NCBI RefSeq assembly: GCF_009914755.1
Contig: NC_060936.1
Length of the DNA: 64,000 nucleotides
Source of the DNA: the human T2T-CHM13v2.0 reference genome, Homo sapiens
Strand: one strand, 5' to 3'
Under the pieces are notes generated by a model, which was not told the DNA's origin, made no database searches, and saw only the letters and a program-made list of their open reading frames with translations. How positions within the stretch are numbered: position 1 is the first letter of the stretch; every line of letters starts with the position of its first letter. Positions 61,679 to 64,000 of the stretch are shown here, piece by piece. Made by a program: the position numbers and the translations under genes.

Positions 61679-61978
61679 GCAACTGAGCCTTTATTATAAA
61701 GATCATAAGATGTTTGTTTAACTTATTTTCCTTTTATCTTGTCCTTTCCTGCCTCCATACATGTTTACTTGTAATTTTGGTAGAGAGTAGTCCCTAGTAA
61801 TTGATTAATTTGATATCCTCACCCCAGGGGCTGGCCACAAGATTAATGAACTTGTTTTCTTTTAAAGAACAAGGATTCTTAGGTCATACAGAAATTCTTG
61901 ATGGCCCCTAAAGTTTGATTGGGCTGAGGGACTCAAATAGCTTTGATCATTGGGGGAACCCACCTCCCACATACCTAC

Positions 61979-62355
61979 TGTCAGGCCTCTGGTCCCAAGC
62001 CTGCACATATACATCCAGATGGCCTGAAGTAACTGAAGAATGACAAAAGAAGTGAAAATGGTCGGTTCCTGCCTTAACTGATGACATTACCTTGTGAAAT
62101 TCCTTCTCCTGGCTCATCCTGGTTCAAAAGCTCCCCCACTGAGCACCTTGTGACCCCCACACCTGCCAGCCAGAGAATAACTCCCTTTTACTATACTTTT
62201 CCACTACCTACCCAAATCCTATAAAACGGTCTCACCCCTATCTCCCTTTGCTGACTCTCTTTTCAGACTCAGCCCGCCTGCACCCAGGTGATTAAAAAGG
62301 TTTATTGCTCACACAAAGCCTGTTTGGTGATCTCTTCACACGGATGCAGGTGAAA
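61979..62355 (+). mobile_element. LTR7 (HERV-H 5' LTR), short 377-bp variant
   Basis: TGTCAGGCCTCTG..CATCCAGATGGCCTGAAGTAACTGAAGA..CCTATAAAA (TATA ~62220)..ATTAAA (62291-62296)..TTGCTCACACAAAGCCTGTTTGGTG..TGAAA. Confidence 0.95.
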
Positions 62356-62357
62356 TT

Positions 62358-62375
62358 TGGTGCCATGACTCGGAT
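62358..62375 (+). promoter_or_regulatory. tRNA-His primer binding site of HERV-H
   Basis: TGGTGCCATGACTCGGAT directly after the LTR; one CpG-type change from TGGTGCCGTGACTCGGAT. Confidence 0.92.
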
Positions 62376-62986
62376 CAGGGGACCTCCCTTGGGAGATCAA
62401 TACCCTGTCCTCCTGCTCTTTGCTCCATGAGAAAGGTGCACCTACAACATCGGGTCCTCAGACCAACCAGCCCAAGGAACATCTCACCAATTTTAAATCA
62501 TGTAAGCGGCCTCTTTTTACTCTCTTCTCCAACCTCTCTCACTATCCCTCAACCCCTTTCTCCTTTCAATCTTGGTGCCATCCTTCAATCTCTCCCTTCT
62601 CTTAATTTCAATTCTTTTCCTTTTCTGGTAGAGACAGAGGAGATGTGTTTTATCCACGACCCCAAAACTCCGGTGCTGGTCATGAACTCAGGAAAACAGT
62701 CTTCCCTTGGTGTTTAATCACTGCAAGGATGGCTGCTTGATTATTCACCCACGTTTCAGAGGTGTCTGATCACCGCGGGGATGCCTGCCTTGATCCTTCA
62801 CCCTTAGCGGCAAGCACTGCTTTTCTGGGGGCAAGCAGCCCCCACCCTTTCTCTCCGTGTCTCTACCCCTTTTCCACTTCCCTGGGAGGCAAGCACCTCC
62901 CACCCTTCTCCACTTTCCTTGGGGGCAAGCACCCCCCACCCCTTCTCTCCATGTCCTCTCTTTTCTCTGGGCTTGCCTCCTTCACT

Positions 62987-64000
62987 ATGGGCAAACTTCC
63001 ACCCTCCATTCCTCCCTCTTCTCCCTTAGCCTGTGTTCTCAAAAACTTAAAACCTCTTCAACTCACACCTGACCTAAAACCTAAATGCCTTATTTTCTTC
63101 TGCAACACCGCTTGGCCCCAATACAAACTTGATAATGGCTCTAAATGGCCAGAAAACTGCATTTTCAGTTTCTCCATCCTACAAGACCTAGATAATTTTT
63201 GTCAAAAAATGGGCAAATGGTCTGAGGTGCCTTACATCCAGACATTTTTCACACTTCGTTCCCTCCCTAGTCTCTGTTCCCAATGCAATTCCTCCCAAAT
63301 CATCCTTGTTTCCCTCCCGCCTGTCCCCTCAGTCCCAACCTCAAGCATCGCTGAGTCTTTCCAATCTTCCTTTTCTACAGACCCATCTGACCTCTCTCCT
63401 CCTCCCCAGGCTGCTCCTCACCAGGCCAAGCCAGGTCCCAGTTCTTCCTCAGCCTCTGCTCCTCCACCCTATAATCTTTCTATCACCTCCCCTCCTTACA
63501 CCTGGTCTGGCTTACGGTTTAGTTCTGTGACTAGCTCTCCCCAACCTGCCCAACAATTTCCTCTTAGAGAGGTGGCTGGAGCTGAAGGCATAGTCAGGGT
63601 ACATGTGCCTTTTTCTCTATCGGACCTCTCTCAGATCAGTCAGCGTTTAGGATCTTTCTCATCAGGCCCTACTAAATATATACATGAATTCCAATATCTA
63701 ACTCTGTCCTACAATTTAACCTGGAGTGACTTAAATGTCATCCTAACTTTTATCCTCCCACTAGATGAATGGGAAAGAGTTTTTTCTCTGGCCCAATCTC
63801 ACACTGACAACTGTCGGCTCCACAAGCCAGACCTCCAGGAAGGCATTAGAGAAGTTCCCCAAGAGGATCCCCAATGGAACTATCAGGAAAATTCCCCAGG
63901 TATAGCTAGGCGAGATTACATGATTTCCTGCCTAGTTGAAGGGCTTAAAAAGGCAGCTTACAAAGCTATTAATTATGACAAGCTTAAAGAAACTACCCAA
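62987..64000 (+). CDS. gag: HERV-H Gag polyprotein, open frame, 3'-partial (MA - proline-rich/late domain - CA)
   Basis: Hand translation, 338 codons without stop or frameshift: MGKLPPSIPPSSPLACVLKNLKPLQLTPDLKPKCLIFFCNTAWPQYKLDNGSKWPEN...APPPYN...QQFPLREVAGAEGIVRVHVPFSLSDL...VPQEDPQWNYQ...CLVEGLKKAAYKAINYDKLKETTQ; strong Kozak context actATGg. Expression cannot be shown from sequence. Confidence 0.8.
   Translation, partial: MGKLPPSIPPSSPLACVLKNLKPLQLTPDLKPKCLIFFCNTAWPQYKLDNGSKWPENCIFSFSILQDLDNFCQKMGKWSEVPYIQTFFTLRSLPSLCSQCNSSQIILVSLPPVPSVPTSSIAESFQSSFSTDPSDLSPPPQAAPHQAKPGPSSSSASAPPPYNLSITSPPYTWSGLRFSSVTSSPQPAQQFPLREVAGAEGIVRVHVPFSLSDLSQISQRLGSFSSGPTKYIHEFQYLTLSYNLTWSDLNVILTFILPLDEWERVFSLAQSHTDNCRLHKPDLQEGIREVPQEDPQWNYQENSPGIARRDYMISCLVEGLKKAAYKAINYDKLKETTQ

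What the first reader, a model, noticed from the sequence alone, without database searches (positions are those of the whole stretch)
62987..64000. Uninterrupted HERV-H gag ORF (at least 338 codons) missed by the ORF track
Seen: ATG 62987 (actATGg) opens a frame with no stop or frameshift to base 64000. It encodes a gammaretroviral matrix (IFFCNTAWPQY..KWP), a proline-rich region with a PPPY late-domain motif (63461-63472) plus a nearby SPPY, a QF/PLR-type p12/CA boundary, and most of CA up to just before the expected MHR. Established knowledge: most HERV-H copies are deletion derivatives lacking parts of gag, and full-structure copies are usually broken by stops and indels. Inference: the LTR and PBS show CpG decay, so 1 kb of intact frame is noteworthy. 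It could be chance or retention of a co-opted Gag/CA, by analogy with Fv1, PEG10 or Arc. N-terminal MGK (consensus recalled as MGN) may impair myristoylation.
Basis: partly seen in the sequence, partly recalled or inferred. Interest (0 to 1): 0.8.

Follow-up and report, generated by a model that had tools for sequence, protein, structure and literature searches.

The report
Chance-surviving HERV-H gag reading frame
An old, decaying HERV-H provirus on chromosome 12 still has an open gag frame of 399 codons, but it looks like the lucky tail of about a thousand decaying copies, not a gene the host has kept.

Summary
ATG 62987 opens a frame with no stop to base 64000. Outside the window it runs 62 more codons to a TAG at 64184-64186, giving 399 codons. 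It encodes an MA-like domain, a proline-rich linker with PPPY, and nearly all of CA (Pfam Gag_p30 65 bits; MLV CA E 5.8e-15). NC with two zinc knuckles follows in the same frame behind that single stop.

The provirus is a 5.8-kb deleted HERV-H. Its LTRs differ by K2P 0.091, so it is old.

Neutral decay explains the frame:
- All 29 other copies surveyed carry 1-10 disruptions in these codons, a smooth tail; the fitted chance of zero is 0.03 per copy.
- An analytic estimate gives 1-11%.
- A chr19 copy has a 408-codon gag frame.
- Rare substitutions give N:S of 12:4 to 29:8, omega 0.9-1.2.
- This copy has 16 unique residues, against a range of 1-25.
- Three canonical major-homology-region residues are replaced.

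Orthologues, expression and peptides could not be tested. Interest is low.

The parts
61979..62355 (+). 5' LTR of the HERV-H provirus (377 nt; TATAAAA at 62220). The matching 3' LTR lies outside the window at window-equivalent 67432-67808 (L009 5932-6308). The provirus spans 5,830 bp, with truncated pro/pol and no env ORF
   Evidence: Direct repeat with the 3' LTR. The pair has 32 substitutions, no indels and K2P 0.091. TATA position. The flanking 5-mers CCTAC (61974-61978) and CCTGC (after the 3' LTR) match at 4 of 5 positions, read by eye, consistent with a target-site duplication. The pol remnants score RNase_H 62.7 bits and rve 54.4 bits.
62358..62375 (+). Primer-binding site (tggtgccatgactcggat), directly after the LTR
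   Evidence: Read. Its assignment to tRNA-His is recalled, not tested. It contains one of the leader's upstream ATGs.
62356..62986 (+). Leader with 8 upstream ATGs before the in-frame ATG at 62951, including a 96-codon uORF at 62427-62717
62987..64000 (+). gag open frame inside the window (codons 1-338). Outside the window it continues to a premature TAG at window-equivalent 64184-64186 (codon 400; 399 codons in all). The same frame then runs through the end of CA and NC with two CCHC zinc knuckles to the normal gag stop at 64601-64603
   Evidence: Pfam Gag_p30 9e-18, 65 bits, residues 212-393; zf-CCHC 30.1 bits and zf-CCHC_5 30 bits on the part behind the stop. MLV CA 6hwx E 5.8e-15. One of the 29 other copies (L011) also has a stop at codon 400, and L011 is not this copy's sister in the tree.
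62987..63316 (+). MA-like domain (residues 1-110; Gly2; four to five helices)
   Evidence: AlphaFold2 model, pLDDT 74.6. The five best PDB matches are MLV MA 1mn8 chains and the MA-like 1uhu, TM 0.54-0.66, E 0.1-0.5. There is no Pfam MA hit. By sequence, 1mn8 scores only E 0.33.
63317..63559 (+). Proline/serine-rich linker (p12-like, residues 111-191), with PPPY at 63461-63472 and SPPY at 63488-63499
   Evidence: Sequence. Predicted disordered, pLDDT below 50 for residues 108-190. Y171 is unique to this copy.
63560..64000 (+). CA, the part inside the window (residues 192-338, starting PLREV). CA continues outside the window to residue 399 (window-equivalent 64183). The MHR starts at Q338 (63998-64000)
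   Evidence: MHR residues K342, S347 and C350 (outside the window) stand where MLV CA has E, F and R. E and F are at least 90% conserved in 28 gamma-type Gags.

Best explanation
This is the gag gene of an old, deleted (5.8 kb) HERV-H provirus. It has decayed neutrally since integration and has kept its first 399 codons open by chance. The frame would encode MA, a PPPY linker and nearly all of CA. One premature stop cuts it off from NC. It is the zero-hit tail of a population of HERV-H gag copies that carry 1-10 hits each. The sequence shows no protein-level constraint. If a transcript from the old LTR were translated, past eight upstream ATGs, it would give a truncated Gag with a degenerate major homology region and no RNA-binding domain. 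That would be a by-product, not a maintained host function. Shown here: the anatomy, the age proxy, the comparison of copies and the N:S counts. Inferred: neutrality since integration, because orthologues were not available.
For: 1. The frame ends soon. A TAG follows 62 codons past the window. NC is in the same frame but separated from it, and pro breaks right after the gag stop.

2. The copy is old. The LTR pair has 32 substitutions in 377 nt (K2P 0.091) and no indels. The terminal branch of this gag in a tree of 30 copies is 0.042, which equals half the LTR distance. The ORF has 10 CpG against 57 expected.

3. It sits on a smooth tail. In the 29 other copies fetched (the best-scoring hits), stops plus frameshifts within these 399 codons are distributed as follows:
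- 1 disruption: 3 copies
- 2: 6 copies
- 3: 3 copies
- 4: 3 copies
- 5: 5 copies
- 6: 2 copies
- 7: 1 copy
- 8: 2 copies
- 9: 3 copies
- 10: 1 copy
The mean is 4.59 and the variance 7.47. A negative-binomial fit gives P(0) = 0.029; Poisson gives 0.010. About 0.9 zero-hit copies are therefore expected among 30.

4. An analytic estimate agrees. The present ORF has 42 transition and 108 transversion changes that would create a stop. With per-lineage divergence of 0.032-0.0455 and 0.019-0.05 frameshifting indels per substitution, P(open) is 0.008-0.11. The indel ratio of 0.019 was measured.

5. It is not unique in length. L021 (chr19) has a 408-codon ATG-initiated gag frame. The next longest are 355, 355, 323, 321, 307 and 300 codons.

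6. There is no purifying selection on the protein.
- Substitutions rare among the 30 copies give N:S of 12:4, 23:6 and 29:8 at three thresholds, omega 0.91-1.16.
- Omega of 0.3 or less is rejected at p = 0.037, 0.001 and 0.0003. Omega of 0.5 is rejected only at the two looser thresholds (p = 0.04 and 0.03) and not at the strict one (p = 0.22).
- The pooled broken copies give lower N/S: 2.29, 1.92 and 1.54.
- This copy has 16 unique residues at positions where at least 80% of the other copies agree. The range over copies is 1-25.

7. The MHR is degraded. K342, S347 and C350 stand where MLV CA has E, F and R and where most HERV-H copies keep them. E342 and F347 are at least 90% conserved among 28 gamma-type Gag proteins. 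S347 is unique to this copy.

8. At CGA hot spots (codons 66, 73, 236, 292, 309) other copies show both the stop and the non-stop decay product in similar numbers. This copy carries the non-stop product at four of them and keeps CGA at one. That is what luck looks like.

9. No gene is annotated here (hub annotation supplied with the finding).
Against: - A per-copy probability of 1-11% is not large. Copies with similar private divergence carry 2-7 hits, so this copy is a real outlier within its age class.
- The whole 538-codon gag has only one disruption, where about 3.9 are expected (P of one or fewer is about 0.10).
- The 29 comparison copies are those most similar to this protein, 104 scored of 7,996 first-look candidates. 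They are not a random sample, so the number of 'trials' is uncertain.
- The N:S test rests on 16-37 substitutions called from paralogues in one genome. It cannot see weak constraint (omega 0.6-0.8), and some rare variants may predate integration.
- Related gamma-type gag ORFs have been co-opted in primates: gagV1/ERVFRD-2, PLAC4 and LOC107986768 (passages of PMC12679747). LOC107986768 is 47% identical to this ORF over 82% of it.
- Orthologous frames, human polymorphism, RNA, Ribo-seq and peptides were not examined.
Confidence: 0.85

Rival explanations
1. Co-opted truncated Gag. The host keeps an MA-p12-CA protein without NC, for example as a capsid-binding restriction factor in the manner of Fv1, or as a placental gag protein like gagV1, PLAC4 or LOC107986768.
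For: - The frame has 399 open codons in a copy whose age class carries 2-7 hits.
- The start ATG has a strong Kozak context, and Gly2 and PPPY are kept.
- The MA and CA domains are confidently predicted to fold.
- Precedents for co-opted primate gag ORFs exist (PMC12679747 passages). One of them, LOC107986768, is 47% identical.
- A review reports the speculation that HERV-H gag sequences were co-opted (PMC12228294 and PMC6629862 passages). That idea concerns the zinc-finger region, which this ORF lacks.
Against: - Omega is about 0.9-1.2 on rare substitutions, with omega of 0.3 or less rejected.
- This copy has as many unique residues as the broken copies.
- Three canonical MHR residues are lost, one of them privately.
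- Eight upstream ATGs lie in the leader.
- The LTR is old (K2P 0.091), and older HERV-H loci are reported to be less transcribed (PMC6629862 passages).
- No gene is annotated at the locus.
- Neutral survival is plausible.
Confidence: 0.04
2. The frame is open because the gag segment is younger than the LTRs suggest, for example through gene conversion from a better-preserved copy. Neither luck nor selection would then be needed.
For: HERV-H copies are numerous and 90-94% identical, so conversion is possible in principle. Private changes are uneven along gag: 16 in nt 1-1197 but only 1 in nt 1198-1617.
Against: - The terminal branch of this gag (0.042) matches half the LTR distance (0.0455).
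- The nearest copies are 7.7-8.9% diverged with no closer donor.
- CpG depletion in the ORF is advanced, 10 against 57 expected.
- The unevenness goes the wrong way, because the ORF part carries more private changes.
Confidence: 0.03
3. An unselected but expressed product. The ORF is translated opportunistically where HERV-H is derepressed, such as pluripotent cells or tumours. It would yield an antigenic Gag fragment with no maintained function.
For: The HERVH/F superfamily dominates ribosome-associated HERV RNA in embryonic stem cells (PMC10759522 passages). The ORF is long and starts at an ATG in strong context. This reading is compatible with neutral decay.
Against: - No locus-specific data were found. 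A search for 'HERVH_12q14.1' gave 0 papers.
- The LTR is old and the leader has eight upstream ATGs.
- PeptideAtlas-supported gag ORFs named in PMC12679747 lie on chromosomes 19 and 7, not here.
Confidence: 0.08

Closest known systems
Other HERV-H (RTVL-H) proviruses with gag remnants in the human genome
   Same: DNA identity is 89-94% to 40 listed copies. The layout is the same: LTR, PBS, gag, truncated pol, LTR. Gag is colinear, with no indel against L011 and L012 over 1,617 nt. This copy falls in a clade with L012, L033 and L038, support 1.0.
   Different: It is the only one of the 30 copies surveyed with no stop or frameshift in codons 1-399. It keeps residues 228-341, which many copies lack. 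L021 has an equally long frame (408 codons) that starts further in.
Murine leukaemia virus Gag (MA p15, p12, CA p30, NC p10)
   Same: - The domain order is the same.
- CA matches by sequence (6hwx E 5.8e-15; Pfam Gag_p30 65 bits) and by fold (6hww, 6hwx, 3bp9).
- The MA-like fold matches 1mn8 with TM about 0.6.
- PPPY lies in the linker, and a PLR motif stands at the inferred CA N-terminus.
- NC zinc knuckles follow downstream.
   Different: - Identity is only 26-27% in CA.
- The MHR residues E, F and R are replaced.
- NC is separated by a stop, and HERV-H NC has two knuckles.
- There is no Pfam hit for MA or p12.
Co-opted primate gamma-type gag ORFs: gagV1/ERVFRD-2, PLAC4, LOC107986768
   Same: All are Gag-derived ORFs with an MA or MA+CA-NTD architecture and no NC (PMC12679747 passages). 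LOC107986768 (P0039) is 47% identical over 82% of this ORF.
   Different: Those three have reported dN/dS of 0.27-0.61 across primates and placental peptides. This ORF shows omega of about 1 by the paralogue proxy, has no annotation, and no expression data were found.
HERV-Fc1 gag (Xq21.33; name and locus recalled)
   Same: It is a gag frame of the HERV-H/F group that is open over its whole length. The match at G000:C23:96281611-96282795 covers residues 2-398 with no stop.
   Different: Identity is only 46%, so it belongs to a different, younger family. Its assignment to HERV-Fc1 is recalled and was not tested here.
Fv1 (mouse, ERV-L gag-derived restriction factor; recalled)
   Different: Fv1 is conserved across Mus with an intact MHR (recalled). 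Here the MHR is degraded and no constraint is seen. It derives from an unrelated ERV class.

Membership tests
HERV-H provirus | High DNA identity to the multicopy HERV-H internal sequence | tested here: met
   A 301-nt gag probe gives 40 listed matches at 89-94% identity on many chromosomes. The protein probe gives 117 matches from 104 scored candidates.
HERV-H provirus | Two LTRs flanking gag-pol, with a target-site duplication | tested here: met
   The 377-nt LTR pair is 91.5% identical. The flanking 5-mers match at 4 of 5 positions. The pol remnants score RNase_H and rve.
HERV-H provirus | Primer-binding site for tRNA-His | not tested
   An 18-nt site directly follows the LTR. Its match to tRNA-His is recalled, and I did not compare it with a tRNA gene.
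Gammaretrovirus-type Gag | CA (p30) domain | tested here: met
   Pfam PF02093 scores 65 bits against a cut-off of 27.4, profile positions 1-182 of 201. PDB 6hwx scores E 5.8e-15. Foldseek gives 6hww at 4.6e-07.
Gammaretrovirus-type Gag | Canonical major homology region (Q, E, F, R) | tested here: not met
   Q338 is kept. K342, S347 and C350 replace E, F and R. E and F are at least 90% conserved in alignment A1.
Gammaretrovirus-type Gag | MA domain with N-terminal Gly2 | tested here: inconclusive
   Gly2 is present. There is no Pfam MA hit and phmmer gives 1mn8 at E 0.33. The folded model's five best matches are MLV MA or MA-like, TM 0.54-0.66, E 0.1-0.5.
Gammaretrovirus-type Gag | PPPY late domain in the MA-CA linker | tested here: met
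   PPPY lies at residues 159-162, window 63461-63472. Its function as a late domain is inferred.
Gammaretrovirus-type Gag | NC zinc knuckle(s) in the same polyprotein | tested here: not met
   Two CCHC knuckles are present in frame but lie behind the premature stop at codon 400.
Co-opted (domesticated) gag gene | Purifying selection on the protein (dN/dS below 1) | tested here: not met
   The paralogue proxy gives N:S of 12:4, 23:6 and 29:8, omega 0.91-1.16. Omega of 0.3 or less is rejected. Orthologue-based dN/dS was not possible.
Co-opted (domesticated) gag gene | Open frame conserved in orthologous loci of other species | not testable with these tools
   No primate genomes are held. The protein search returned no hit above 86% identity other than the window's own protein.
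Co-opted (domesticated) gag gene | Locus-specific transcription, translation or peptides | not tested
   No expression data can be reached. 'HERVH_12q14.1' gave 0 papers. The locus is not among the gag ORFs with peptide support in the passages of PMC12679747.

The most novel reading that the evidence does not exclude
The truncated MA-p12-CA protein, without NC, is a young, weakly constrained host factor. It could be a dominant-negative or capsid-binding Gag acting against HERV-H/F-type particles, or a tissue-restricted gag protein like its 47%-identical relative LOC107986768. Its constraint would be too weak or too recent to show in 16-37 paralogue-called substitutions.
Probability: 0.04. Interest if true: 0.6.

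Novelty: new member of a known kind. Interest (0 to 1): 0.2.

Why it matters
If the neutral reading holds, as I think it does, the finding matters as a calibration point. A 1.2-kb open retroviral frame in a provirus roughly 20-40 million years old (rate recalled) is not evidence of co-option when the family has hundreds of gag-bearing copies.

It also shows a blind spot in HMM-based surveys. One preprint reports no conserved Gag domain at all in HERVH using GyDB profiles (10.1101/2025.07.25.666750, passages). Yet Pfam Gag_p30 scores this frame at 65 bits once it is read past the window end, against 18.5 bits for the window part alone.

In practice, the ORF's 16 unique residues would allow locus-specific peptide searches in stem-cell, placental and tumour proteomes. 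HERV-H-derived antigens are of interest there.

Tried and rejected
- Two papers likely to list HERV-H gag ORFs or human gag ORFs are not held: Jern et al. 2005 (PMC1091717) and Boso et al. 2021 (PMC8662612). Whether they name this locus is therefore unknown.
- Gemmell 2019 supplement 1 has per-locus features but no coordinates ('chr12' gave 0 hits). I read part 1 of 19 only and could not identify this locus in it. Supplement 2 was not opened.
- Villesen 2004 gives only length bins: 33 Gag frames of 400-500 codons over all HERV families. I did not look for its locus list.
- The literature searches found no paper that names this locus. Supplements are not covered by the full-text search.
- The window part of the ORF alone scored below Pfam's cut-off (18.5 bits). 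That is a truncation artefact, not evidence against CA.
- My first survey script did not reverse-complement minus-strand loci and gave meaningless short alignments for 10 of 29 loci. It was redone, and only one search is used.
- I considered that the stop shared with L011 at codon 400 might be inherited. L011 lies outside this copy's clade and shares only 2 rare variants with it, so independent origin is as likely. This is left open.
- The column 'open_frame_aa' does not equal a stop-free frame: L012 shows 603 with 4 stops inside. I did not use it and recomputed frames.
Those features are now described inside the parts that lie in the window.

Full report
**1. What is there**

The window is T2T-CHM13 chr12:61,504,001-61,568,000. 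ATG 62987 (ttcactATGg) opens a frame with no stop to base 64000, which is 338 codons. An in-frame ATG in weak context lies 12 codons upstream at 62951. The frame runs off the window. The ORF listing omits such frames unless open_ends is set, which explains why an ORF track missed it.

I fetched 10 kb around the site as L009, where a window position equals the L009 position plus 61500.
- The frame continues for 62 more codons and ends at a TAG at 64184-64186. That makes 399 codons from MGK and 481 stop to stop.
- The same frame then continues through two CCHC zinc knuckles to the normal gag stop at 64601-64603. The 538-codon gag therefore has one premature stop and no frameshift.
- Protease breaks up immediately after the gag stop.

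**2. Anatomy of the provirus**

- The LTRs of 377 nt lie at 61979-62355 and 67432-67808. The provirus is 5,830 bp.
- The flanking 5-mers match at 4 of 5 positions.
- An 18-nt primer-binding site follows the 5' LTR. Its assignment to tRNA-His is recalled.
- pol survives as an RNase H-bearing 417-codon frame and an integrase-core fragment. No env frame of 80 codons or more is present.
- The leader holds eight ATGs before 62951, including a 96-codon uORF.

**3. What the ORF encodes**

- Read whole, it scores Pfam Gag_p30 at 65 bits (cut-off 27.4), residues 212-393. The window part alone scored 18.5 bits.
- MLV CA chains match at E 5.8e-15.
- I folded the ORF with AlphaFold2, using an alignment with 28 gamma-type Gag proteins. 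The model has confident MA-like (residues 11-100) and CA (residues 205-390) parts and a disordered linker at 108-190. The CA part matches MLV CA best, 6hww at 4.6e-07.
- A separate MA model has MLV MA 1mn8 and the MA-like 1uhu as its five best matches. TM is 0.54-0.66 but E is only 0.1-0.5.
- By sequence the MA assignment is not significant.
- PPPY is at 63461-63472. PLREV at residue 192 marks the inferred start of CA.

**4. Age**

- The LTRs differ at 32 of 377 sites (23 transitions, 9 transversions, 9 at CpG sites) with no indel. K2P is 0.091.
- With recalled neutral rates this gives roughly 20-40 million years.
- In a FastTree tree of 30 gag copies, the terminal branch of this copy is 0.042, about half the LTR distance. 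It sits in a clade with L012, L033 and L038, support 1.0.
- The ORF has 10 CpG where 57 are expected.

**5. Is the open frame unusual among copies?**

A search of the genome with the 399-residue protein scored 104 of 7,996 candidates. Among HERV-H matches that cover residues 1-399 in one frame, only this locus had no stop.

I aligned the 29 best other loci (L011-L039) to this gag.
- Every one has at least one stop or frameshift in codons 1-399. The counts of copies with 1, 2, 3... 10 disruptions are 3, 6, 3, 3, 5, 2, 1, 2, 3 and 1.
- The mean is 4.59 and the variance 7.47. A negative-binomial fit gives P(0) = 0.029, so about 0.9 zero-hit copies are expected among 30.
- The longest open gag frames in the other copies are 408 (L021, chr19), 355, 355, 323, 321, 307 and 300 codons. 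The distribution is continuous, and this frame is not even the longest.
- These 29 are the copies most like the query, not a random sample.

**6. Neutral expectation for this copy**

The present ORF has 150 single-base changes that would make a stop. I took per-lineage divergence of 0.032-0.0455, a transition share of 0.60-0.72, and 0.019-0.05 frameshifting indels per substitution. The lower indel ratio comes from 109 such events per 5,793 substitutions. The chance of staying open is then 0.008-0.11.

At the CGA hot spots (codons 66, 73, 236, 292, 309) other copies show the stop and the non-stop decay products in similar numbers. This copy has the non-stop product at four of them and an intact CGA at one.

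**7. Is there constraint on the protein?**

- Substitutions in this copy that are absent or rare in the other 29 split N:S as 12:4, 23:6 and 29:8 at three thresholds, giving omega of 0.91, 1.16 and 1.09.
- Omega of 0.3 or less is rejected at p = 0.037, 0.001 and 0.0003. Omega of 0.5 is rejected only at the two looser thresholds (p = 0.04 and 0.03) and not at the strict one (p = 0.22).
- The pooled broken copies give lower N/S: 2.29, 1.92 and 1.54.
- This copy has 16 unique residues in 399 codons, against a range of 1-25 across copies.
- In the major homology region it has K342, S347 and C350 where MLV CA has E, F and R and where most HERV-H copies keep them. E342 and F347 are at least 90% conserved among 28 gamma-type Gags. 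S347 is private to this copy.
- Residue Y171, which creates 'SPPY', is also private.
- K at residue 3 is shared by 7 of 30 copies.

**8. Literature**

- Villesen 2004 (passages) counts 33 Gag frames of 400-500 codons over all HERVs, and one non-betaretroviral Gag frame above 500.
- Gemmell 2019 (passages; supplement 1, part 1 of 19) calls HERV-H gag relatively complete. It speculates on a role for the zinc-finger region, which this ORF lacks.
- A 2025 preprint found no conserved Gag domain in HERVH with GyDB profiles (passages).
- PMC12679747 (passages) reports three co-opted gag ORFs with dN/dS of 0.27-0.61 and placental peptides. None is this locus. One of them, LOC107986768, is 47% identical to this ORF.
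- No paper naming this locus was found. Jern 2005 and Boso 2021 are not held.

**9. Verdict**

The frame is best explained as the chance tail of neutral decay in a large family (confidence 0.85).

Co-option remains possible only in a weak or recent form (about 0.04). It needs orthologue, population and expression data that these tools do not hold.

Noticed in passing
L021 = G000:C19:20230128-20234216, minus strand: Another HERV-H copy has a 408-codon ATG-initiated open gag frame. It has one frameshift near the N-terminus and its first stop at codon 442 in this copy's numbering. Its frame is as long as the one studied.
   Followed up: partly
G000:C23:96281611-96282795: A gag-like frame is 46% identical and has no stop over residues 2-398. 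It is probably the HERV-Fc1 gag on Xq21.33 (name recalled, not tested).
   Followed up: no
L009 3564-4817 (window-equivalent 65064-66317, outside the window): The pol remnant of the same provirus is open for 417 codons and holds a full RNase H domain (62.7 bits) plus RT-RNaseH connection domains.
   Followed up: partly
L029 and L032 (G000:C11 about 4.29 Mb and 4.38 Mb): Two HERV-H copies about 97 kb apart are nearly identical (terminal branches 0.009) and share the same stops. This suggests a segmental duplication and not two integrations.
   Followed up: no
P0051, P0072, P0089: Proteins named 'natural cytotoxicity triggering receptor 3 ligand 1(-like)' from lemur, macaque and titi monkey match this Gag at 45-51% identity over 63-70% of it. 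A host gene therefore carries a related Gag-derived segment.
   Followed up: no
window 62427-62717: A 96-codon ATG-initiated frame lies in the proviral leader, upstream of gag and in another frame. It is one of eight upstream ATGs.
   Followed up: partly
L009 1487-3103: Private substitutions of this copy are uneven along gag: 16 in nt 1-1197 but only 1 in nt 1198-1617. This is unexplained. It may be noise or an effect of alignment coverage.
   Followed up: no
codons 73, 78, 292, 321, 479, 501 of gag across L011-L039: The same codons are hit by stops in 5-7 different copies (CGA and TGG codons, and one AAA). These are recurrent mutational hot spots or shared ancestry within subgroups.
   Followed up: partly
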